Shown piece after piece: positions 4,055-13,105 of a DNA stretch of 41,195 nt. This DNA is from Candidatus Thorarchaeota archaeon (GTDB lineage Archaea; Asgardarchaeota; Thorarchaeia; Thorarchaeales; Thorarchaeaceae), in the NCBI GenBank assembly GCA_048882325.1, contig JBHLRS010000029.1:1-41195 (forward strand). Direction: 5' to 3'. Positions within the stretch are counted from its first letter, which is position 1, and each line of letters opens with the position of its first letter. Below the pieces are notes generated by a model. The model was not told where the DNA came from. It worked only from the letters and a program-made list of their open reading frames with translations, and made no database searches. A program made the translations under genes and the position numbers.

Positions 4055-5290
4055 TCAAGTAGCAGGTGTATCCATGAAGACTGCTAGCTCACTGACAGCT
4101 CTTGATGATTTTTGGTCTTTCATCAGTAATGCAACAAGTGTTGCAAGTAACGTTGTCATGACTAGGAACACGATTGATGCTGCTAGTCCCCACAGGTCAC
4201 CAATCCAACCAAAAATGATAGGTGAAATAGCACCCGGAAGAGCTCCTACCGAGAAGAGTAGTCCAAAGGCAAGTCCCCTATTTGCTCGTGGACTAACCTC
4301 AGTCAAGTATGCAGTGTTAGCAGGAACTCCTAGATAGAAGAAGAATCCAATCACCACTAGCATCAGGATTAGGACTTCAAGACTCAGAGAATAGTTCAGT
4401 GCAAGGAGTGCTGGTGTAGCGAGTCCTGTTGAAATGACAAGGAAGACAACTCGCTTGTTCAACTTGTCCGAGAGCCAGCTAGCAACCATCTCTCCAACAA
4501 GGCCTGCGGTCAGCATGATAGTTGTGAGGTAGCCTGCTCCAATCAGATCCACTGGATAGGTTGCTTCTAGATAAAGAGGCATTAGCAAAGAGGTGCACCT
4601 GAAGGACATCCCTCTCAAGCCCATAAGAATCAGGCCGAGCCAATATCCTTTTGTCCACCCATCTGCGCCTTCGCACTCATCTGCCTCATCTATGAATCCT
4701 TCAACATATCCCGAACTTGAAAATCTCATCAGAATAATGAACGGAATGAAGATTATGAGTCCCATCACACCCAATGCAACAAGTGAGAGTCGCCATCCGC
4801 TGAGAAAAACAAGAAGGGTTACACCGAGGAATGGTATCACAGCCATACCAATGAGTCCACCCATTGCTTGAATTCCCGTTGCTTTGGCGAGGTCTCTTTG
4901 AGGGAATTTCTCAGCAAGGGCTGGAAACACGCTAGGATGATATCCTGATGCACCAATACCTAGAAAGAACTGGAATATTGCTAATATCAAAAAACTGCTT
5001 GAATAACTCACTAGGATCATAGCGAATGCACTGAGTAAAATGCTCGCTGAGATGAACCCATCACGCCACCGCGCCCCCTTGTCACCAAGGTATCCAACAA
5101 CGAAGTGGGAAAGAGTCATAGCTATAACAACAGCACTTGTAATGACTCCAACCTCGGTGTAAGTCAGACTCAGGTCATCCTTAATCAGAGGAAGGAAGGG
5201 AGACAGTGCTCCTGTATACACGTGGTTTAGAAAGTGTGCCATTGTCACTGCAGCAAGAACTGCATAGGCTGCTGTTGTGGATCTCGCCAA
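4055..5290 (-). CDS. MFS transporter
   Basis: About 12 TM; MFS loop motifs GYLGDKG and WLSDKLNKR. Confidence 0.9.
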   Translation of the reverse strand: MARSTTAAYAVLAAVTMAHFLNHVYTGALSPFLPLIKDDLSLTYTEVGVITSAVVIAMTLSHFVVGYLGDKGARWRDGFISASILLSAFAMILVSYSSSFLILAIFQFFLGIGASGYHPSVFPALAEKFPQRDLAKATGIQAMGGLIGMAVIPFLGVTLLVFLSGWRLSLVALGVMGLIIFIPFIILMRFSSSGYVEGFIDEADECEGADGWTKGYWLGLILMGLRGMSFRCTSLLMPLYLEATYPVDLIGAGYLTTIMLTAGLVGEMVASWLSDKLNKRVVFLVISTGLATPALLALNYSLSLEVLILMLVVIGFFFYLGVPANTAYLTEVSPRANRGLAFGLLFSVGALPGAISPIIFGWIGDLWGLAASIVFLVMTTLLATLVALLMKDQKSSRAVSELAVFMDTPAT

Positions 5291-5364
5291 TTCTCTGAAT
5301 CACGCCCAGAATTACGGATATCCCGACACACTCCTATGTTAAGCATGCTGGTATAGACAACTTG

Positions 5365-5450
5365 AGAAAAGAAAATAGTCGGTGAGCTGGCGACCTGAGA
5401 TAGTCCCATGTCACCAGCAGTTCCGACTTCGACTCGGAAAGGTTGTTAGT
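5365..5450 (-). ncRNA. Candidate small structured RNA or MFS leader (long hairpin plus U-tract)
   Basis: Minus-strand TTTAAATA at 5480-5473, a roughly 20-bp interrupted hairpin at 5428-5377 with two G-U pairs only on this strand, then TATTTTCTTTTCT. Confidence 0.4.
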
Positions 5451-5525
5451 AAATCAATCAAATCCCTTATCATATTTAAAGAACCAATTATCGGCAATCA
5501 TGGTGTTTCTAAATACACCTTGGCA

Positions 5526-7499
5526 TCAAACAAGTAGTCCAGCTGTCCAGAGTACTATCCGAAGTCCAATCAATGCATTGTCACCAGCACCATATTCTCC
5601 TAGCAACGCATAGTTATCAAGGAAGAAGTTAGTACCTGTCACGACTATTCTGCCGCCACCTACTCCTTCCTTGCATCCTAGTACCGGAGCTGTAGGGTGA
5701 TATTTTGCAAGTCTTGTACCATCTAAGGGAATGTTCACTACTGCTCCTGAGTAGTAGAATCCACTCACTCCTGATGTGATGATGTGTGTATCCAAGTCAT
5801 CGATGAATGCAGGCCCAGATATAGCTGAAACCTCCGTGGTGTCAAGCTGAAACCTTGAGAAGCTTAGGAAGTCGTTCACCTGCGATATGTTTGTGAAACT
5901 CTCACCTAGTGTTGCAAGAAAAATCCCTCCTCCAGCATCATAGTAGTCCTCGTAGGCTTGTTTCTCTGTTGCTGAGAAAGGCAAAGAGTACACTGTGGAG
6001 TCTGAGGGATCTGTTTCGTTGTAGTCATAGACGCACGGATCAAGGATGATGACTGAATCGAACTGCTGCAGGAGGGCTAGGGTTGTTTCAGAGCTGTTCC
6101 GCAGTTCAGTTACTGAAATATCATTGAAGGTGAGTTCCTTGTAGAACTCTCGGAACTGACCGTAAGAGGAATCGATGGACCAAGAAGTGTGACTGATGTC
6201 AAATGCGACCTTCGCAATTGCATTAGACAGTGTGAATGATAGATTCAAGCTTGTGTCACCAAACTCAGGTGATGAGAACTGAATGGTATTGGTTAGCGTT
6301 GACAGTCCTGATGAAGGCATATTGATGGTAAGCGGAATGATGCGACTCTGATTAACTTCAATTGTTGAAGGAAGGTCGACAATTCCAGGAGCGTTTCCTG
6401 TGACGCTCACTGTGAAGGTCGTAAAGCCAGCTGTTAGAAGTCTAATGTTGAACTCGTACGTGTCATTGTAGAAGAGTTGTTCATAATCGATTGGGAGCGT
6501 TCCTGGGAAAGCCAAGCTCATGGCTGGAAGTTCTCCCTCTTGCGCTGATGCATCAAGGAGCGCAATTGAATTCTGTACATTCAACTTACCTGTCCCGACT
6601 GCATAGCTTGGGTATCCTGTCATTGGGTCTGCTCCCATCATTAATGCAGTCATAATTGATCCTGGTGTGAACGTGAAATTGTTGTCTGTTGAATATCCTA
6701 TGAGCCGTGCTACTGCTCCAGCAACTCTGGGTGCTGCGAAACTTGTTCCATAGTATCTGGAAGAACCATGGGTAACCCAACCGTAGGCGCTGATATCTGG
6801 CTTCATATATCTGTCAAACGTAGGACCTGTCGAAGAGAACTCAGCCAATGTGCCATCTTCATATAGTGCAGCTACTGAAACACACTTCTCGAAGACACTT
6901 GGAGATGATATGCTGTTACCGGCAATTCCGCTATCACCTTCATTTCCTGCCGAGGAAATCACGACTGCACCTCGGGCGAATGCCCATTCTACAGCCGCCT
7001 CAATGGGATCTCCTAAGACTGGACTCCCACCAAGACTCATTGTGATTACACTGCAATTCTGTTCAATTGACCAGTAAATTGCAGCCGCAATGGCAATCGA
7101 TGTTGCTGATCCATTGTCACCCATAACCTTTGCATTCACAATCTCTGCATTGGGCGTTTCAGCAACTAGTGACGCCACAAGTGTGCCATGAGGAACGCCT
7201 TCAGGCCGTGAATCAGTAGTCGTTGTATCGGTTACACCATATCCATATTTTTGCAAAAGAAAACTTTTCTCAGCAACGACTCGTCCCTGAAGCGAAAAAT
7301 CAACGTCAATACCAGAATCCAGAACTGCTACCCTGACCTTCGTTTTTGGGCCAGAACCAAAATCAAAAGGTGCAAACCTGATCAAGACTGCTAATCCAGA
7401 CGAGATGACAATCATCAAAATGAAAATGACTGCAACAATCTTGGTTGTGTTAGATCTCGTTTCCCGTGGTGGAGGGGTTTGCCAGTAGTAGTCCATCAT
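5526..7499 (-). CDS. Membrane-anchored S8 subtilase with C-terminal alpha/beta domain, Site-1 protease (SKI-1/MBTPS1)-like
   Basis: Catalytic triad VLDSG, HGT, GTSFAAP; oxyanion SAGNEG; N-terminal TM. The track ORF starts at 7556, but ATG 7499 is more likely. Confidence 0.85.
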   Translation of the reverse strand: MMDYYWQTPPPRETRSNTTKIVAVIFILMIVISSGLAVLIRFAPFDFGSGPKTKVRVAVLDSGIDVDFSLQGRVVAEKSFLLQKYGYGVTDTTTTDSRPEGVPHGTLVASLVAETPNAEIVNAKVMGDNGSATSIAIAAAIYWSIEQNCSVITMSLGGSPVLGDPIEAAVEWAFARGAVVISSAGNEGDSGIAGNSISSPSVFEKCVSVAALYEDGTLAEFSSTGPTFDRYMKPDISAYGWVTHGSSRYYGTSFAAPRVAGAVARLIGYSTDNNFTFTPGSIMTALMMGADPMTGYPSYAVGTGKLNVQNSIALLDASAQEGELPAMSLAFPGTLPIDYEQLFYNDTYEFNIRLLTAGFTTFTVSVTGNAPGIVDLPSTIEVNQSRIIPLTINMPSSGLSTLTNTIQFSSPEFGDTSLNLSFTLSNAIAKVAFDISHTSWSIDSSYGQFREFYKELTFNDISVTELRNSSETTLALLQQFDSVIILDPCVYDYNETDPSDSTVYSLPFSATEKQAYEDYYDAGGGIFLATLGESFTNISQVNDFLSFSRFQLDTTEVSAISGPAFIDDLDTHIITSGVSGFYYSGAVVNIPLDGTRLAKYHPTAPVLGCKEGVGGGRIVVTGTNFFLDNYALLGEYGAGDNALIGLRIVLWTAGLLV

Positions 7500-7731
7500 T
7501 AGCACCGAGGTTGTTTTCATTGAATGCGGCATGTGAAACCGTACTTGAGCACACATGAACCTATCGACGATGGTAATGCTGCATCATATGCAAAACCATG
7601 TGAATTCTGAACCGGAAAGCTTCATTAGGTGCAGAAGAGAGTCAGCTAGTGTCGGACTTGAGGTAGGAACATTCGAGTTTGATTTATCTGTAGAAACACT
7701 ACATCAAGTATACCCCTAAGAGGTAGCAGCT

Positions 7732-10686
7732 TTGTCCAAAGAAGACGCCATCACAAGGGAGAACTCCAAGAGTTACTCCTTCCATTCTATGCCTCTTGAG
7801 GAGGTATATGAAACTCTTCAGGCTAATCCAGAACAGGGGTTATCTGATAAAGAGGTCAAAACAAGACTCCAAGAGTACGGTGAAAATGCGATTACAAAAG
7901 CCAGAGGTCCATTCTGGCAGGTATACATCGCCCCCATCATGAACTGGTTGATTACTATTTATATAATAAGCTCAGTTGCGCTCATTGTCATTGCTCAGTT
8001 ACTTGCTAGGCTTCCTGGTGCGCCTCCTGGTGAAAACGAGATGGGCCAGGCACTGGTGTGGCTAGGTATCGTTACTGTCAATGCTCTCGTAGCTATCTTT
8101 CAACAATACCGTGCTCAAAAGAAACTGGAAGCGCTTGAGAAGCTCACTGCAGGAGAAACTCGAGTCATCCGAGGGGGTTCAGAGAAAAGCATACCTCCCT
8201 TTGAGATAGTTCCTGGCGACGTAGTCAAGCTAGATCAGGGTGACAGAATTCCTGCTGATGCTAGGATCATATCTTGTTCAAATCTCACAACAAATGAAGC
8301 ATCATTGACCGGTGAAAGTGTTCCTGTTGCAAAGGATGATGAAAGCACAGTAGCAGCAGACGTTCCTCTCACAGATATGAGGAATATGGTCTTCTTTGGA
8401 ACATATATTTCAACGGGAATGGCCACTGTTGTCACCACTGCGACTGGCGGTAGTACTGAAATTGGAAAGATTCAGGGAACACTTGAGGAACTCAATACTG
8501 GTGATATCCCTCTAAGAAGAAAAGTTAATCTTCTAGCAAAGTATCTCGGTATTGCAGCTATCATCCTCATGTCTGTATCAGTATTGTGGACCGTTATTAT
8601 TCAGGACTGGCTTGCTGGAAGAACTGATTTGTTTGCTGAAAATCTCCAGTTAGTGAATGTACTAGTTCAGATGCAGAGAGCCATCACTCGTGCAATGACA
8701 ATTATGCCAATCAACATCCCATTACTCACAACCATAGTACTCCTCACAGGAGTCTTGGCTATGGCTAGGAAGGGAGTAATTATCAGGGACCTGTCTGCAG
8801 TTGAGAGTCTTGGTCGAGTCAGTGTCATCTGCAGTGATAAAACTGGGACCATGACTCGGAATCAGATGACTGTCAAGTACATCTGGGACACTCACAACCT
8901 GTACTCTGTCAAGGGTGATGGGTACGATCCAGTCGGCGGCATCTATCTCATGAAAGGGGCTGACGATATCGTTACACTTGAGGTCACTGAGGAAGAGGTC
9001 AAGGATGTCTTCAAATGGAAAGGTCTCTACCGCCTTGTAGTGTGCGGGGGCATCAACAATGACTCAGAGATCATCAAGGAAGAGCTTCCAGATCAGGGTG
9101 AAATATGGAAACCACTTGGAGACCCTACGGATGCAGCTCTTCTGACGATGTTCCGTAAGAGTGGCATAGATGAAGAAGCCATTACTAAGAAATACGAAGT
9201 AGTAGAAGAATTCCCATTCGAGTCTGAACTGAAACGTATGTCAAAAATCTGCAAGGATGGGAAGAAGTTTGTAGCATTCGTCAAGGGTGCAACAGAGGTC
9301 CTGCTACCGAAGTGTGATTTTGTTGATGGGAAGGACACACCCACCAAGATTACTCCTGACCTCGTTGATCATGTTAGAAGACTCACTACAGACTTTGCTG
9401 CAAAGGGATATCGTGTCATTTCTATAGCTTATCGACATCTGGACAAGATTCCAACAGGGAAGAATGCTCGAGATGAGACAGAGAGCAATCTCATCTATCT
9501 TGGATTTGCATGTATTGTTGATCCACCTCGAGAGGGTGTAAAAGAAGCTGTTGCTGCTTGCCACTCTGCAGGAATCAACGTCATCATGATTACAGGCGAT
9601 GCAGCTGCCACTGCACAGACAATTGCCACGGACTTGGGTATTTTTGACGCCAACTCAATTGTGGTGGAAGGCAGTCAGGTCAACAGTGTTACAGACGATG
9701 AGTTTGCACGCACAAATGTATTTGCAAGAGTTAATCCAGATCATAAACAGGTTATCGTTGAGCGCTACCAAGACCAACAGCGTGTCGTGGCAATGACCGG
9801 AGATGGTGTGAACGATGCCTTGGCACTTGCAATGAGTGATGCTGGAATCGCAATGGGAATCACTGGGACAGACGTAGCAAAAGAGGCTGCTGACCTAGTG
9901 ATCACAGATGATAGTTTTGCATCTATTGTTTCAGGAGTACATCAGGGAAGAGGTCTATTCAATAAGATTCGAATGATGATCTACTTCTACATTGCAATCA
10001 ACCTGTTTGAGAGTCTCATCTTCTTCGGAGCTTTGTTCCTGTTGCCTGATATTGAAGTCCTCTCTCTCTGGCAGAGTCTATACCTTGTTGTTACAACACA
10101 CTCGTTCCCAGGACTTGCCCTCGTCTTTGATCGAACATCACCTCGTGCGATGGAAGACAAACCACGTGACAGTCAGGCACTCATCACACGCAATCTTGGC
10201 AAGTTCATGGCTTTGAACGTCATACTCATGACAATCGGAGCTGCAGCTGTCTACATGCTGACACTGACTGGTTGGACCCCAGAAGGTTGGCCAGAGATAG
10301 TCGGAGTCTACACTGAGAATCATCAAGGCTTCTACGGTACAATTGATAGGCCTTACAAGGCCACGGTCATGCTTCTATCAGTTATTCTTCTGGTAGAGAG
10401 CACGATTGTTCTCAGCATTCGAAGAATCAACATGCCGATACAGCAAGGTCTTCGTGAACCTGGAACCTGGATCTTTGTGTTCCTACTTGGTCTGATTTAT
10501 CTCGCACACTATCTACTCATGTACGTTCCTTTGGCACAAGATATACTCGCTCCATATGGACTTCATTTCTACTTTGCACCACTTACTCGATACGACTGGT
10601 TTATTGTTCTACTTGGAGCACTCCCAGCAATAGTGGGGGTTGAACTTTACAAGTGGCGGTTCAGGAAGAGAGACATCGACCTATAG
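7732..10686 (+). CDS. P-type ATPase (P2-like scaffold, atypical transport site)
   Basis: LTGES, ICSDKTGTMT, KGA, DPPR, MITGD and MTGDGVND motifs; about 10 TM; TM4 reads IMPINIP instead of PEGL. Confidence 0.95.
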   Translation: MSKEDAITRENSKSYSFHSMPLEEVYETLQANPEQGLSDKEVKTRLQEYGENAITKARGPFWQVYIAPIMNWLITIYIISSVALIVIAQLLARLPGAPPGENEMGQALVWLGIVTVNALVAIFQQYRAQKKLEALEKLTAGETRVIRGGSEKSIPPFEIVPGDVVKLDQGDRIPADARIISCSNLTTNEASLTGESVPVAKDDESTVAADVPLTDMRNMVFFGTYISTGMATVVTTATGGSTEIGKIQGTLEELNTGDIPLRRKVNLLAKYLGIAAIILMSVSVLWTVIIQDWLAGRTDLFAENLQLVNVLVQMQRAITRAMTIMPINIPLLTTIVLLTGVLAMARKGVIIRDLSAVESLGRVSVICSDKTGTMTRNQMTVKYIWDTHNLYSVKGDGYDPVGGIYLMKGADDIVTLEVTEEEVKDVFKWKGLYRLVVCGGINNDSEIIKEELPDQGEIWKPLGDPTDAALLTMFRKSGIDEEAITKKYEVVEEFPFESELKRMSKICKDGKKFVAFVKGATEVLLPKCDFVDGKDTPTKITPDLVDHVRRLTTDFAAKGYRVISIAYRHLDKIPTGKNARDETESNLIYLGFACIVDPPREGVKEAVAACHSAGINVIMITGDAAATAQTIATDLGIFDANSIVVEGSQVNSVTDDEFARTNVFARVNPDHKQVIVERYQDQQRVVAMTGDGVNDALALAMSDAGIAMGITGTDVAKEAADLVITDDSFASIVSGVHQGRGLFNKIRMMIYFYIAINLFESLIFFGALFLLPDIEVLSLWQSLYLVVTTHSFPGLALVFDRTSPRAMEDKPRDSQALITRNLGKFMALNVILMTIGAAAVYMLTLTGWTPEGWPEIVGVYTENHQGFYGTIDRPYKATVMLLSVILLVESTIVLSIRRINMPIQQGLREPGTWIFVFLLGLIYLAHYLLMYVPLAQDILAPYGLHFYFAPLTRYDWFIVLLGALPAIVGVELYKWRFRKRDIDL

Positions 10687-10741
10687 TGCAAATCGAAAAG
10701 GAATATATCGCGGTTCATATCAGTCCACATGAAGCCGGAGT

Positions 10742-11377
10742 ATGTCAAAAATGGACCTGCAAGACATAACTGACATGATAATCGAACTTGATATCGACAA
10801 TGTTGCGACTGCAGTTCAGCAGAAGATTCACGATGGTGCTGACCCGCAAGATCTCCTGAAAGCACTCACCGCAGGAATGGATGAGGTTGGTCGTAGATAT
10901 GAAACTGATGAGTACTTCCTTGCAGAGCTCGTTCTAGCAGGAGATACAATGAAGGCTGCCTTTGAAGTCCTAAAACCACATCTCAAGTCTGATGAAGCTG
11001 GCGGTAAAACACCAATTGTAGCTGCTACTGTGAAAGGGGATAATCATGATATCGGAAAGAATATCCTTGTTTCCATGCTTGTTTCTGCCGGATTCGATGT
11101 AATTGACCTTGGGATGGACTGCCCTACAGAGAGGATTGTTGAGGCTGTTAAGGAATCTGGAGCCAAGGTTGTCGCCCTTAGTGCACTGCTCACAATGACA
11201 ATGAAGGAGATTCCAAACGTTGTGAAAGCACTTCAGGAGGCAGGTCTTCGGGATGGAGTCAAGATTATCGTGGGTGGAGCACCATTGAATACGGAACTCG
11301 CGAAGGAGTTAGGTGCTGATGATTATGGGCCTGACGCAATTGACGGTGTTAGACGAATTAAAGCTCTGCTTGAATGA
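10742..11377 (+). CDS. Corrinoid (B12-binding) protein, methyltransferase cognate type
   Basis: Cap domain (GMDEVGRRYE..YFLAEL), DxHxxG (GDNHDIGKN), SALLT, VGGAP. Confidence 0.9.
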   Translation: MSKMDLQDITDMIIELDIDNVATAVQQKIHDGADPQDLLKALTAGMDEVGRRYETDEYFLAELVLAGDTMKAAFEVLKPHLKSDEAGGKTPIVAATVKGDNHDIGKNILVSMLVSAGFDVIDLGMDCPTERIVEAVKESGAKVVALSALLTMTMKEIPNVVKALQEAGLRDGVKIIVGGAPLNTELAKELGADDYGPDAIDGVRRIKALLE

Positions 11378-11426
11378 TCCATGTCAGAAAATCAAATTGT
11401 ATATACATTATATATTCTGACATGGA
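11378..11426. promoter_or_regulatory. 12-bp perfect inverted repeat upstream of panB
   Basis: TCCATGTCAGAA (11378-11389) and TTCTGACATGGA (11415-11426) with a 25-nt AT-rich spacer, next to TATATAAAT. Confidence 0.55.
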
Positions 11427-11472
11427 ACTATATAAATGATGGATTTCTTACCAGTTGTGTGGAGATTACAAC

Positions 11473-12330
11473 TTGGCTCGCAAGACGACTCACAACATTC
11501 GCCTCATGAAGAAGAAAGGCAAGAAGATAGTCATGCTCACTGCTTATGATGCTCCAACCGCTGCAATTCTTAGTGAGATGGGCGTTGACATGATTCTTGT
11601 TGGGGACTCGGTAGGCAACTCACTTTTGGGATATGAGAGTACAATCCCCGTGACTCTAGAGGACGTTATCCATCATAGCGCTGCTGTGGCTCGAGCTAGA
11701 CCAAATTGCTTGATTGTGGGAGATATGCCCTTCATGTCCTACAAAGTCAGTGTCCAACAGGCGCTTGAGAATTGTGGTCTGATGCTTCAGGAAGGCGGGG
11801 CAGAGGCTGTGAAGATCGAGGGTGGATCTGAAGCAGTAGTTGAAATTGTTCGCTCAATAGTTGATGCGGGCATCCCTGTCATGGGTCATATCGGCCTCAC
11901 CCCCCAATCCATCTATCAACTTGGTGGCTATCGTATTCAGGGCCGCACTGCTGACATGGCTGAGGTGCTGGTACAACAGGCTGTGAAGCTCGAGGAGGCA
12001 GGTGCCTTCTCAATGGTGATTGAACTTGTTCCATCAGAAACCGCGAAGCTGATTACCGAAACTGTGGGAATTCCAACAATTGGTATTGGAGCTGGTCCTC
12101 ACTGTGATGGACAAGTGCTTGTACTTTGGGATATGCTAGGTCTTTTTGAGGACTTCAAACCAAAGTTCGTTAAGAAGTACGCGAATGTGCGTGAACTAAT
12201 CAAGACTGCAGTTGCTGAATATTCTCAGGAGGTTCGTGATGGTACGTTTCCTGATGCTGAACATAGCTTTGAGATGACTGAGGAAGAGACTGGACGACTC
12301 TATGGTCGTACTAAACCTAACAGTGAGTAG
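11473..12330 (+). CDS. panB: 3-methyl-2-oxobutanoate hydroxymethyltransferase
   Basis: MLTAYD, LVGDS, GDMPF, VKIEGG, GHIGLTPQS, IGIGAG, DGQVLV. TTG 11473 after GGAG is preferred over 11455. Confidence 0.95.
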   Translation: MARKTTHNIRLMKKKGKKIVMLTAYDAPTAAILSEMGVDMILVGDSVGNSLLGYESTIPVTLEDVIHHSAAVARARPNCLIVGDMPFMSYKVSVQQALENCGLMLQEGGAEAVKIEGGSEAVVEIVRSIVDAGIPVMGHIGLTPQSIYQLGGYRIQGRTADMAEVLVQQAVKLEEAGAFSMVIELVPSETAKLITETVGIPTIGIGAGPHCDGQVLVLWDMLGLFEDFKPKFVKKYANVRELIKTAVAEYSQEVRDGTFPDAEHSFEMTEEETGRLYGRTKPNSE

Positions 12331-12361
12331 GACAAGAACTCATACAAAAATAAAGTGATTA

Positions 12362-12380
12362 AGCCCTCTCAAAGAGGGCT
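12362..12380. terminator. Hairpin between convergent panB and DUF1858-type genes
   Basis: AGCCCTCT-CAA-AGAGGGCT, followed by a T-rich tract on the minus strand. Confidence 0.6.
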
Positions 12381-12391
12381 GGTCAAGGTCT

Positions 12392-12610
12392 TTACTCCTC
12401 TTTCTTTTCGATTTCTTCGTTTATCGCCTTGATGAGAGCATCTGGATCGATACCGTGAGCCTGTGCACCTTGCTCTATGGTTTCATACCTTGCAGCGGCG
12501 CATCCAAAGCAATGCAATCCATATGCCATGAATATTCCCGCTGACTCGGGGAACTTCATGACCACTTCACCAATGCTCATTTCTTTCGTTACTGCTGCCA
12601 TTGTGTTCAC
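12392..12610 (-). CDS. DUF1858-type small CxxC redox protein
   Basis: MSIGEVVMKFPE...GLHCFGCAAARYETIEQGAQAHGID pattern. Confidence 0.85.
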   Translation of the reverse strand: MNTMAAVTKEMSIGEVVMKFPESAGIFMAYGLHCFGCAAARYETIEQGAQAHGIDPDALIKAINEEIEKKEE

Positions 12611-12682
12611 CTTGTTAACAATAATTAATTGTCAGATACAAGCTTGCCTTGAACTCTGGGAATATATACTTTACTTTTGATA

Positions 12683-13105
12683 CTACAACACTAAATCAGT
12701 TAAACCCAGCTCTTTGAGGACTTCTGGGTATACAGCATAGAGTGGCTTTATTTTTGAGAGCAATCCGAGTGCTTTCGCAACTGAGCCGTTCAGCTTGACT
12801 TGACCTCTTGCCATCGCCACAGTTGTATTTAATTTTCCTTGCCAAAACTTGTTTGTAGTTTCTGATACAGACCATACTGAGATTTCCGGCTCAACATCAC
12901 TGTCAAAGGTCAAGGTCCCGATCTCGCCATCTGGCCCTGGGTCTCTGAAGTTGATTGTCATATGCACCTCGGGGTCTTCGATGTCGAAACGAACAACTAC
13001 TTGAGACTTGGCCAGCTTTTGCATTATCTCTTCATGAGTTGTGGCCTTTTCCCAGAACTTGTTGAATACTTCCTGAAACTGTTCCTTGCTTTCAAACTTG
13101 GCCAT
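12683..13105 (-). CDS. SCP2 sterol/lipid-binding domain protein
   Basis: SCP2 C-terminal signature KFWQGKLNTTVAMARGQVKLNGSVAKAL. Confidence 0.8.
   Translation of the reverse strand: MAKFESKEQFQEVFNKFWEKATTHEEIMQKLAKSQVVVRFDIEDPEVHMTINFRDPGPDGEIGTLTFDSDVEPEISVWSVSETTNKFWQGKLNTTVAMARGQVKLNGSVAKALGLLSKIKPLYAVYPEVLKELGLTDLVL

What the first reader, a model, noticed from the sequence alone, without database searches (positions are those of the whole stretch)
7732..10686. P2-scaffold ATPase with a flippase-like TM4 (PINI) and a lost Ca2+ site II
Seen: TM4 reads IMPINIP (8701-8721) and TM6 reads QSLYLVVTTHSFPGLAL. TM5 INLFES and A-domain TGES are retained. Established: SERCA uses PEGL E309, N796 and D800 for site II, whereas P4 lipid flippases have PISL with Ile at the Glu position and DGET. 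By-eye alignment gives E309I, N796V and D800H, with N768, E771 and T799 kept. Inference: this is not a normal Ca pump. It may be a pump of novel specificity or an intermediate toward lipid-flipping P4 ATPases, a class generally regarded as eukaryotic.
Basis: partly seen in the sequence, partly recalled or inferred. Interest (0 to 1): 0.8.

Follow-up and report, generated by a model that had tools for sequence, protein, structure and literature searches.

The report
Asgard P2-type pump, rebuilt ion site
This gene encodes an intact ATP-driven membrane pump from an old, uncharacterised, Asgard-archaeal branch of the calcium-pump family; one calcium site is erased and the other is rebuilt around a glutamate-histidine pair, so it probably pumps a small cation other than calcium, and nothing marks it as a lipid flippase.

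Summary
ORF 7732-10686 (984 aa, TTG start) has the P2 domain set and intact TGES, DKTGT and GDGVND. HMMER alignments to SPCA1 and SERCA1 give E309->I, G310->N, N796->V and D800->H, with N768, E771, T799 and E908 kept.

It is not a one-off. About 45 clusters at 50% identity share M4 P-x-N-x-P, M5 N..E, an invariant M6 His and an M8 Glu. All named members are Asgard, apart from one doubtful Korarchaeota label. About 90 of 151 sampled Asgard genomes carry it, some as tandem paralogs.

The Ile that looked flippase-like is not conserved (I/V/L/F/W/M). The Asn next to it and the His are.

The family is monophyletic. It groups with canonical PEGLP P2 pumps and excludes P3A and P1B. The P4 profile scores 103 bits against a cut-off of 431, much as ordinary Ca2+ pumps score. 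There are no PhoLip_ATPase domains. Asgard P3A proton pumps also carry a hydrophobic residue at the E309 position.

The flippase and P4-ancestry reading is therefore not supported. The best reading is a single-site cation pump of unknown specificity.

The scan has found and followed up this same family in other genomes, with the same verdict.

The parts
7732..10686 (+). P2-type P-type ATPase gene, 984 aa, TTG start
   Evidence: ORF. Pfam finds Cation_ATPase_N, E1-E2_ATPase, Cation_ATPase, Hydrolase and Cation_ATPase_C. The TTG start and the N-terminus (M)S-x-x-D/E-A-I-T are conserved in Thor orthologs. The stored database copy, P0002, is 965 aa and matches 98% of the query.
8308..8319 (+). A-domain TGES (aa 193-196)
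   Evidence: G194 and E195 are invariant and T193 is at least 90% conserved in the family. P4 pumps have DGET (my knowledge).
8701..8721 (+). M4 IMPINIP (aa 324-330); I327 sits at the SERCA E309 position and N328 at the G310 position
   Evidence: Aligned on SPCA1 IPEGLP. P326 is invariant, N328 is 93% conserved, and canonical pumps have Gly there in 95% of cases. The helix is unwound at 325-328 in the model.
8836..8850 (+). DKTGT phosphorylation motif (aa 369-373)
9994..10014 (+). M5 AINLFES (aa 755-761); N757 corresponds to N768 and E760 to E771
   Evidence: Aligned on SERCA1 SSNVGEV. E760 is invariant and N757 is at least 90% conserved. E760 falls in the same column as the M5 Arg of Asgard P3A pumps.
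10072..10122 (+). M6 QSLYLVVTTHSFPGLAL (aa 781-797); V786 corresponds to N796, T789 to T799 and H790 to D800
   Evidence: Aligned on SERCA1. H790 is invariant in the family and absent from 110 canonical relatives. M6 is unwound at 789-791 in the model.
10396..10398 (+). M8 Glu889, equivalent to SERCA E908
7675..7690 (+). BRE/TATA-like promoter box GAGTTTGATTTATCTG
   Evidence: It lies 42-57 nt upstream of the start. The consensus in Thor orthologs is ACAAGTTCATTTATCTG. That it is a promoter is inferred.
7720..7724 (+). Shine-Dalgarno-like GAGGT, 7 nt before the TTG
   Evidence: GAGG(T/G) recurs at this place in the orthologs.

Best explanation
This is a working P-type ATPase of a distinct, Asgard-specific family on the P2 (Ca2+-pump-like) scaffold.

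Shown: all catalytic motifs are intact, so the normal E1/E2 phosphoenzyme cycle is expected. Ca2+ site II is erased (E309->hydrophobic, N796->V). The acidic entry funnel is neutralised (SERCA E109->Q; the M1 Gln->Pro). The family keeps five polar residues: N328 (M4), N757 and E760 (M5), H790 (M6, in place of D800) and E889 (M8). These are the SERCA site I positions plus a new M4 Asn.

Inferred: these residues form a single site I-like site. The pump moves one small cation per cycle out of the cytoplasm, and that cation is not Ca2+. E760 and E889 act as carboxylate ligands, N328 and N757 as amide ligands, and H790 either as a ligand or, once protonated, as a built-in counter-ion paired with E760 in E2. 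This would parallel the M5 Arg / M6 Asp pair of P3A pumps and the M6 His of P1B-4 pumps.

Substrate identity is a guess: a borderline divalent metal (Mn2+, Fe2+, Co2+, Ni2+ or Zn2+) about 0.35; H+ or another monovalent cation about 0.30; Ca2+ or Mg2+ about 0.10. It acts alone, with no beta subunit or other conserved partner. It is not a lipid flippase.
For: - P2 architecture. The best solved relatives are LMCA1, SPCA1 and SERCA.
- Residue mapping.
- Family-wide conservation of P-x-N-x-P, N..E, His and Glu in 30 representatives at 50% identity or less.
- Discriminating positions against 110 canonical pumps: P68, Q125, N328, H790 and others.
- Family monophyletic (SH-aLRT 100). Family plus canonical P2 joined at 98, excluding P3A and P1B.
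- The model has pLDDT 81.6, with M4 and M6 unwound exactly at PINI and at His790. All 50 top fold matches are P2 pumps.
- The own genome also holds two canonical PEGL pumps and two CPC-type P1B pumps, and no SPC/HEGxT P1B-4 pump.
- About 90 of 151 Asgard genomes carry a family member, and tandem paralogs keep the signature.
- In alignment, P3A M5 Arg and M6 Asp fall in the columns of E760 and H790.
- Precedent for an M6 His as ligand or counter-ion in P1B-4 pumps: PMC8880997.
- Neighbours differ between lineages.
Against: - No biochemical data exist for any member.
- The model's coordinates could not be read, so the clustering of the five residues into one site is inferred from homology to SERCA site I, not measured.
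- In SERCA, ions reach site I through site II and the E309 gate. No site-I-only P2 pump is known to me.
- No metal-binding tails, chaperones or metal regulators lie nearby, and two P1B pumps already exist in the genome. Both points argue against a metal substrate.
- True P3A pumps co-occur with the family in at least 19 genomes. This argues against a simple H+ pump role.
- The aromatic Phe or Trp at the E309 position in the basal subclades would also fit an organic cation.
Confidence: 0.7

Rival explanations
1. It is a proton pump, or another monovalent-cation pump. H790 and E760 would act as the protonatable centre, as a charge-swapped version of the P3A Asp684/Arg655 pair, and the pump would energise or pH-regulate the Asgard membrane.
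For: - A hydrophobic residue at the E309 position, as in Asgard P3A pumps (IPVALP).
- Three acidic groups of the ion path are lost (E109Q, E309I, D800H), which lowers the charge to suit a monovalent ion.
- The P3A Arg and Asp columns coincide with E760 and H790.
- A wide, housekeeping-like distribution with paralogs.
Against: - It scores only 310-346 bits on the P3A model, against a cut-off of 615, and is separate from P3A in the tree.
- True P3A pumps co-occur with it in at least 19 of the sampled genomes, so the two are not complementary.
- His is not a Na+ or K+ ligand.
Confidence: 0.3
2. It is a lipid flippase, or an evolutionary intermediate toward eukaryotic P4 ATPases. This is the first reader's idea: the M4 Ile would be a hydrophobic gate and the substrate would be a lipid head group.
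For: - P-I-N-I resembles P-I-S-L.
- Ca2+ ligands are lost.
- Some family members score slightly higher on the P4 model (123-147 bits) than canonical pumps do (75-105 bits).
- The host is an Asgard archaeon.
Against: - The A-domain motif is TGES, not DGET.
- No PhoLip_ATPase_N/C domains.
- P4 model scores are far below the cut-off of 431, and the matches lie in the P and N domains.
- The Ile is not conserved.
- The cation ligands N..E and the M8 Glu are invariant or nearly so.
- The family groups with P2 pumps, and all fold matches are P2.
- No CDC50-like or other conserved partner.
Confidence: 0.04
3. It is still a Ca2+ (or Mg2+) pump. It would use a single site I-like site, with His replacing Asp, and might supply divalent cation to the cell surface, for example to the Ca2+-dependent subtilase encoded next to it.
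For: - N768, E771, T799 and E908 equivalents are kept in this protein.
- The S8 subtilase is the divergent neighbour in 26 of 28 genomes of the Thor family.
- S8 proteases commonly need Ca2+ (my knowledge).
Against: - D800 bridges both Ca2+ sites in SERCA and is invariantly His here.
- The entry-path acids are lost.
- The genome already has two canonical PEGL pumps.
- The subtilase pairing is absent outside the Thor family.
- His is a poor ligand for Ca2+ and Mg2+.
Confidence: 0.1
4. It pumps an organic cation such as a polyamine or another non-metal substrate, in the way P5B pumps do. The hydrophobic or aromatic M4 residue and the Glu/His pair would bind an amine.
For: - The basal family branches have Phe or Trp at the E309 position (PFNFP, PWNFP).
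- The site charge is reduced.
Against: - The P5 model scores only 205-238 bits, against a cut-off of 618, no higher than the 248-275 bits of canonical pumps.
- There is no P5-type PP(x)LP motif.
- No polyamine genes lie nearby.
Confidence: 0.08

Closest known systems
P2A Ca2+-ATPases: Listeria LMCA1 (6zhf/6zhh), human SPCA1 (8iwp and related entries), SERCA1/2
   Same: - Same domain set, including Cation_ATPase_N and Cation_ATPase_C.
- Intact TGES, DKTGT and GDGVND.
- Best sequence matches, at E 1e-117 to 1e-101, and best fold matches, at TM 0.70-0.77.
- M5 N..E and the M8 Glu are kept.
- Sister group in the tree.
   Different: - PEGLP becomes PINIP, NLVTD becomes VVTTH, and E109 becomes Q.
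- It scores 415-451 bits, against equivalog cut-offs of 703-798.
- LMCA1 and SPCA keep only site II (my knowledge). This family has erased site II and kept the site I positions.
P3A plasma-membrane-type H+-ATPases (TIGR01647), including the Asgard copies L090-L095
   Same: - A hydrophobic residue at the E309 position (IPVALP).
- A single ionisable M5/M6 pair in the same alignment columns.
- Probably no counter-transported ion (inferred).
   Different: - P3A has M5 Arg plus M6 Asp; here it is M5 Glu plus M6 His.
- It scores 319 bits, against a cut-off of 615.5.
- It forms a separate clade.
- P3A pumps are about 815 aa and have no match in the alignment to the N-terminal segment that precedes M1 here.
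P1B-4 transition-metal pumps (sCoaT, CtpD; SPC / HEGxT)
   Same: An invariant M6 His, proposed as a metal ligand and built-in counter-ion (PMC8880997).
   Different: - A different subclass, with 8 TM helices, an SPC motif in M4 and no Cation_ATPase_N/C (my knowledge).
- This protein scores only 238 bits on the P1B model and lies far from the genome's P1B pumps in the tree.
P4 lipid flippases (ATP8A1, Drs2; TIGR01652)
   Same: A hydrophobic residue after the M4 Pro, and loss of the acidic M4 and M6 ion ligands.
   Different: - TGES rather than DGET.
- No PhoLip_ATPase_N/C domains.
- 103 bits, against a cut-off of 431.
- M5 N..E and the M8 Glu are retained.
- No partner subunit.

Membership tests
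P-type ATPase superfamily | DKTGT phosphorylation site, TGES-type A-domain motif, GDGxND hinge, and HAD-like P domain | tested here: met
   D369, K370, G372, T373 and the G690-D695 hinge are invariant. One oddity: the hinge reads GDGVNDALAL, whereas 96% of canonical pumps have Pro at the Leu position.
P2 subfamily (broad sense) | Cation_ATPase_N and Cation_ATPase_C domains, 10 TM helices, and grouping with P2 pumps | tested here: met
   Pfam. Joined to canonical P2 at 98, excluding P3A and P1B. All 50 best fold matches are P2 pumps.
P2A Ca2+-ATPase (SERCA / PMR1 / LMCA1 type) | Score above the equivalog cut-off of TIGR01116 or TIGR01522 | tested here: not met
   414.9 against 703.4, and 451.5 against 798.3. 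Canonical neighbours score 670-823.
P2A Ca2+-ATPase (SERCA / PMR1 / LMCA1 type) | Ca2+ site II ligands: M4 PEGL Glu, M6 Asn and M6 Asp | tested here: not met
   E309I, N796V and D800H by HMMER alignment. The changes are conserved across the family.
P4 lipid flippase | Profile membership: TIGR01652 and the Pfam families PhoLip_ATPase_N/C | tested here: not met
   103.3 bits against 431.25. No PhoLip hit at E<=10.
P4 lipid flippase | DGET in the A domain | tested here: not met
   TGES at aa 193-196, conserved in the family. The P4 motif itself is from my knowledge.
P4 lipid flippase | Conserved M4 P-I-S-L with the gate Ile | tested here: inconclusive
   This protein has P-I-N-I. In the family, however, that position is I, V, L, F, W or M, and the conserved residue is the following Asn.
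P4 lipid flippase | CDC50-type beta subunit (P4A) | tested here: inconclusive
   No PF03381 match in the own genome, but the search had no positive control. No conserved neighbour across lineages.
P4 lipid flippase | Phylogenetic grouping with P4 reference sequences | not testable with these tools
   No P4 or P5 reference sequence could be fetched as a usable record. Only profile scores and fold ranks are available.
P3A H+-ATPase | TIGR01647 cut-off; M6 Asp with M5 Arg | tested here: not met
   319.1 against 615.5. E760 and H790 occupy the Arg and Asp columns. Separate clade.
P1B-4 metal pump | SPC in M4, HEGxT in M6, and P1B architecture | tested here: not met
   M4 is PINIP, M6 is TTHSFP, and the domains are P2-type.

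The most novel reading that the evidence does not exclude
The family would be the first P2-scaffold pump built around a site I-only, Glu/His-centred binding site. It would be either a dedicated transition-metal (Mn2+/Fe2+-type) exporter or a His-based proton pump with a built-in counter-ion. It would be an ancient, nearly Asgard-wide invention, and a new P-type subfamily with a new ion specificity in the closest prokaryotic relatives of eukaryotes.
Probability: 0.35. Interest if true: 0.65.

Novelty: new variant of a known kind. Interest (0 to 1): 0.45.

Why it matters
P-type ATPase subfamilies are defined by their ion-site chemistry, and new chemistries are rare. This one is conserved, has expanded into paralogs, and is present in most sampled Asgard genomes. 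Databases nevertheless label it 'Ca2+-transporting ATPase', and Asgard transportome work reads such genes as evidence for Ca2+ signalling (PMC7997004). That annotation is very likely wrong for this family.

Working out its substrate would do three things. It would correct reconstructions of Asgard ion homeostasis. It would test whether a P2 pump can run on site I alone. It would show how an Asp-to-His swap at the central M6 position changes selectivity.

It does not bear on the origin of eukaryotic flippases.

Tried and rejected
- The genome-contig scan with the family alignment used only the generic DKTGT and GDGVND patterns. It returned 80 ordinary PEGLP pumps and no family member, so it is useless for taxonomy.
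- Literature searches found no description of this family. These covered Asgard plus flippase, P-type evolution, FUPA and 'PINIP'. The 2023 review PMC10654040 does not mention Asgard pumps. The TCDB/FUPA paper (Chan 2010) is not in the library, so overlap with a FUPA family could not be checked.
- An Rfam scan of 5000-13000 found no riboswitch or leader.
- A protein-atlas look-up of the C-terminal half returned only generic Cation_ATPase_C clusters.
- The CDC50 search found nothing but had no positive control.
- The downstream B12-binding gene was considered as an operon partner and rejected. It lies elsewhere in other Thor genomes.
- The subtilase was considered as a functional partner. It is conserved as a neighbour only within the Thor family.
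- Complementary distribution with P3A pumps was considered and rejected, because the two co-occur in at least 19 genomes.
- No complex prediction was run, because no candidate partner emerged.
Full report
**1. The observation**

The window holds one long ORF at 7732-10686 (+), 984 aa, starting with TTG.
- IMPINIP at aa 324-330 (nt 8701-8721)
- TGES at aa 193-196
- DKTGT at aa 369-373
- AINLFES at aa 755-761
- QSLYLVVTTHSFPGLAL at aa 781-797

Pfam finds the full P2-type domain set: Cation_ATPase_N, E1-E2_ATPase, Cation_ATPase, Hydrolase and Cation_ATPase_C. The best solved relatives are Listeria LMCA1 (E 3.6e-117), human SPCA1 and SERCA1/2.

HMMER alignments confirm the by-eye residue mapping:
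- PINI lies on the PEGL of SPCA1.
- AINLFES lies on SERCA1 SSNVGEV.
- YLVVTTHSFP lies on WVNLVTDGLP.
- LLVES lies on VTIEM.

So E309->I, G310->N, N796->V and D800->H, while N768, E771, T799 and E908 are kept.

**2. A family, not an accident**

More than 120 clusters at 65-100% identity exist. Sources name them Thorarchaeota or Promethearchaeota 'cation-translocating P-type ATPase' or 'Ca2+-transporting ATPase'.

An exhaustive search of 1.84 billion representatives at 50% identity gives a graded series down to about 34% identity that aligns over the whole length. A plateau of ordinary pumps follows.

A motif table of the best 150 representatives splits them cleanly.
- About 45 carry M4 P-x-N-x-(P/V), M5 N-x-x-E, M6 x-H-x-x-P and an M8 Glu.
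- All the others carry PEGLP, N..E and NLxTDxxP.

In an alignment of 30 full-length members (A1), P326, E760 and H790 are invariant. N328, N757 and E889 are at least 90% conserved.

Compared with 110 canonical relatives, the discriminating positions are:
- Y65 and P68 in M1 (canonical Phe and Gln)
- Q125, the SERCA E109 position (canonical Glu in 95%)
- N328 (Gly in 95%)
- L331 and L332
- L697 (Pro in 96%, in GDGVNDAPAL)
- H790 (Asp in 90%; His in none)
- R898

The residue at the E309 position is merely hydrophobic (I, V, L, F, W or M), so the 'flippase-like Ile' is not the conserved feature. T799 is not conserved in the family either.

**3. Distribution**

Named members are Thor-, Odin-, Hel- and Promethearchaeota. 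There is one 'Korarchaeota' label, on a contig that also carries an Arf/Roc-type GTPase gene.

With the A1 profile, full-length family members score at least 1015 bits and canonical pumps at most 907. By that measure about 90 of 151 sampled Asgard genomes hold a member, including 23 of the 27 genomes of the window's own family (f1, counting G000) (my count of rows with E=0).

One lineage (f9) carries tandem pairs. Both copies keep the signature.

The window's own genome is 93% complete and holds five P-type ATPases:
- two CPC-type P1B pumps
- two canonical PEGL pumps (AIPEGLP/NLATDGFP and AIPEGLI/NLVTDGML)
- this one

The cell therefore has ordinary Ca2+-type pumps beside it.

**4. Relationships**

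In an IQ-TREE tree of 75 rows (LG+G4, quick search) the family is one clade (SH-aLRT 100). It joins the sampled canonical P2 pumps (98), to the exclusion of six genuine Asgard P3A pumps and the two P1B pumps.

The basal family branches are the AIP(F/W)NFP types. They still carry the 'AIP' prefix of AIPEGLP.

NCBIfam ranks the subfamilies the same way for family members and for canonical pumps: P2A > P2D > P2B/C > P3 > P5 > P1B > P4.
- The P4 model gives 89-147 bits to family members and 75-105 to canonical pumps, against a cut-off of 431.
- The family is below every equivalog cut-off.
- Pfam shows no PhoLip_ATPase_N/C even at E<=10.

The AlphaFold2 model was built on alignment A1 (pLDDT 81.6, pTM 0.72). 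It shows M4 unwound at 325-328 and M6 unwound at 789-791, that is, exactly at PINI and at His790. Its 50 best PDB matches are all P2 pumps: SPCA1, SERCA, LMCA1 and Na,K-/H,K-ATPases.

Asgard P3A proton pumps read IPVALP in M4. A hydrophobic residue at the E309 position is therefore normal for a non-flippase pump in this same phylum.

I could not put P4 or P5 references in the tree, because no such sequence was retrievable as a record.

**5. Context**

The gene appears to be a stand-alone gene rather than part of an operon, judging from its own promoter elements and its changing neighbours. The upstream region carries a BRE/TATA-like box (7675-7690) and a GAGGT (7720-7724). The TTG start and the N-terminus (M)S-x-x-D/E-A-I-T are conserved in Thor orthologs.

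Neighbours in Hel, 'Kor' and other lineages are unrelated housekeeping genes. The downstream B12-binding gene lies elsewhere in other Thor genomes. No riboswitch was found.

One conserved neighbour exists. The S8 subtilase at 5526-7556 (-) is the divergent upstream gene in 26 of 28 loci from genomes of the Thor family (42-61% identity). It is absent upstream of the pump in 13 genomes of other Asgard families.

No subunit, chaperone or regulator travels with the family.

**6. Mechanism**

Shown:
- an intact catalytic apparatus
- loss of site II ligands and of two further polar entry-path residues (SERCA E109 and the M1 Gln)
- an invariant Glu (M5) and His (M6), with conserved Asn (M4), Asn (M5) and Glu (M8)
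- unwound M4 and M6 at these residues

Inferred:
- These five residues form one site, equivalent to SERCA site I plus the new M4 Asn.
- The net charge (-1 to -2, against about -3 to -4 in SERCA) suits one divalent ion or one monovalent ion.
[quoted passage not shown] In the alignment, the P3A M5 Arg and M6 Asp fall in the very columns of E760 and H790. In P1B-4 pumps an invariant M6 His is proposed to play both roles (PMC8880997).

For a borderline divalent metal: the O/N ligand set, and the absence of a P1B-4 pump in this genome. Against it: no metal-binding tails and no metal-linked neighbours.

For H+ or another monovalent ion: the lost acidic charges and the P3A-like M4. Against it: co-occurrence with true P3A pumps in at least 19 genomes.

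My estimates: cation pump with a rebuilt single site, not Ca2+ and not a flippase, 0.7. Within the whole space: transition metal about 0.35, H+ or monovalent about 0.30, Ca2+ or Mg2+ about 0.10, organic cation about 0.08, lipid about 0.04.

**7. Comparison and novelty**

It works like a P2/P3-type cation pump. It is a member of the P2 group in the broad sense, but of no defined subfamily. The defining features of P2A, P3A, P4 and P1B-4 were each tested and not met (see the membership table).

I found no paper that describes it. Overlap with a TCDB 'FUPA' family could not be checked.

This scan has already met orthologs in other genomes. Three follow-ups reached the same verdict (e1-5518259, e1-5383781, e1-5448297).

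- the tie to P3A columns
- the phyletic comparison with P3A
- the paralog pairs
- the promoter and start-codon conservation
- the Thor-specific subtilase pairing

**8. Verdict**

'Not a normal Ca pump' is supported. 'Flippase-like / intermediate toward P4' is not supported. This is a new variant of a known kind, of moderate interest (0.45).

Noticed in passing
window 5526-7556 (-) with 7557-7731: The S8 subtilase is the divergent upstream neighbour of the pump in 26 of 28 loci from genomes of the Thor family (tblastn 42-61% identity). It is not upstream of the pump in 13 genomes of other Asgard families. The pairing is lineage-specific, and co-regulation is possible but unproven.
   Followed up: partly
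window 7612-7629: A second conserved intergenic box lies about 115 nt upstream of the pump start. Its consensus in Thor orthologs is GAAAAGCTTCAAAAGG; here it reads CCGGAAAGCTTCATTAGG. It could be the subtilase promoter or a shared regulator site.
   Followed up: no
window 7732: The TTG start is supported by a GAGGT 7 nt upstream and by an N-terminus conserved in orthologs. The stored database protein P0002 is only 965 aa, presumably called from the internal Met20, so public annotation probably truncates the N-terminus.
   Followed up: partly
L125-L129 (for example G141:C50 1812-4670 and 5692-8511): One Asgard lineage (family code f9) carries tandem pairs of family paralogs. One copy is of the CINLFEG/FLSITLHTFP type and the other of the CLNIMEA/YIFGIVHSLP type. 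Both keep the P-x-N-x-P, N..E and His signature.
   Followed up: partly
G000 contigs C5, C7, C14, C1: The own genome holds four further P-type ATPases. Two are CPC-type P1B pumps; the C5 copy has a Cys-rich C-terminal tail (CKMEVD...YYFCNPNC), possibly a YHS/TRASH-like metal-binding domain. Two are canonical PEGL P2 pumps.
   Followed up: partly
L090-L095: Genuine P3A-type H+-ATPase homologs, scoring above the TIGR01647 cut-off at up to 1077 bits, occur in 26 of 151 sampled Asgard genomes. None was found in the window's own family among those searched.
   Followed up: partly
L086: The family member labelled 'Korarchaeota' (P0127) sits on a 156-kb contig next to an Arf/Ras/Roc small-GTPase gene and two C25 peptidase genes. 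The taxonomic label may be a mis-binning of an Asgard contig.
   Followed up: no
window aa 690-699 of the pump (nt about 9799-9828): The hinge reads GDGVNDALAL. 96% of canonical relatives have Pro where 87% of the family has Leu (GDGVNDAPAL). This is a family-specific change in the P domain and its meaning is unknown.
   Followed up: no
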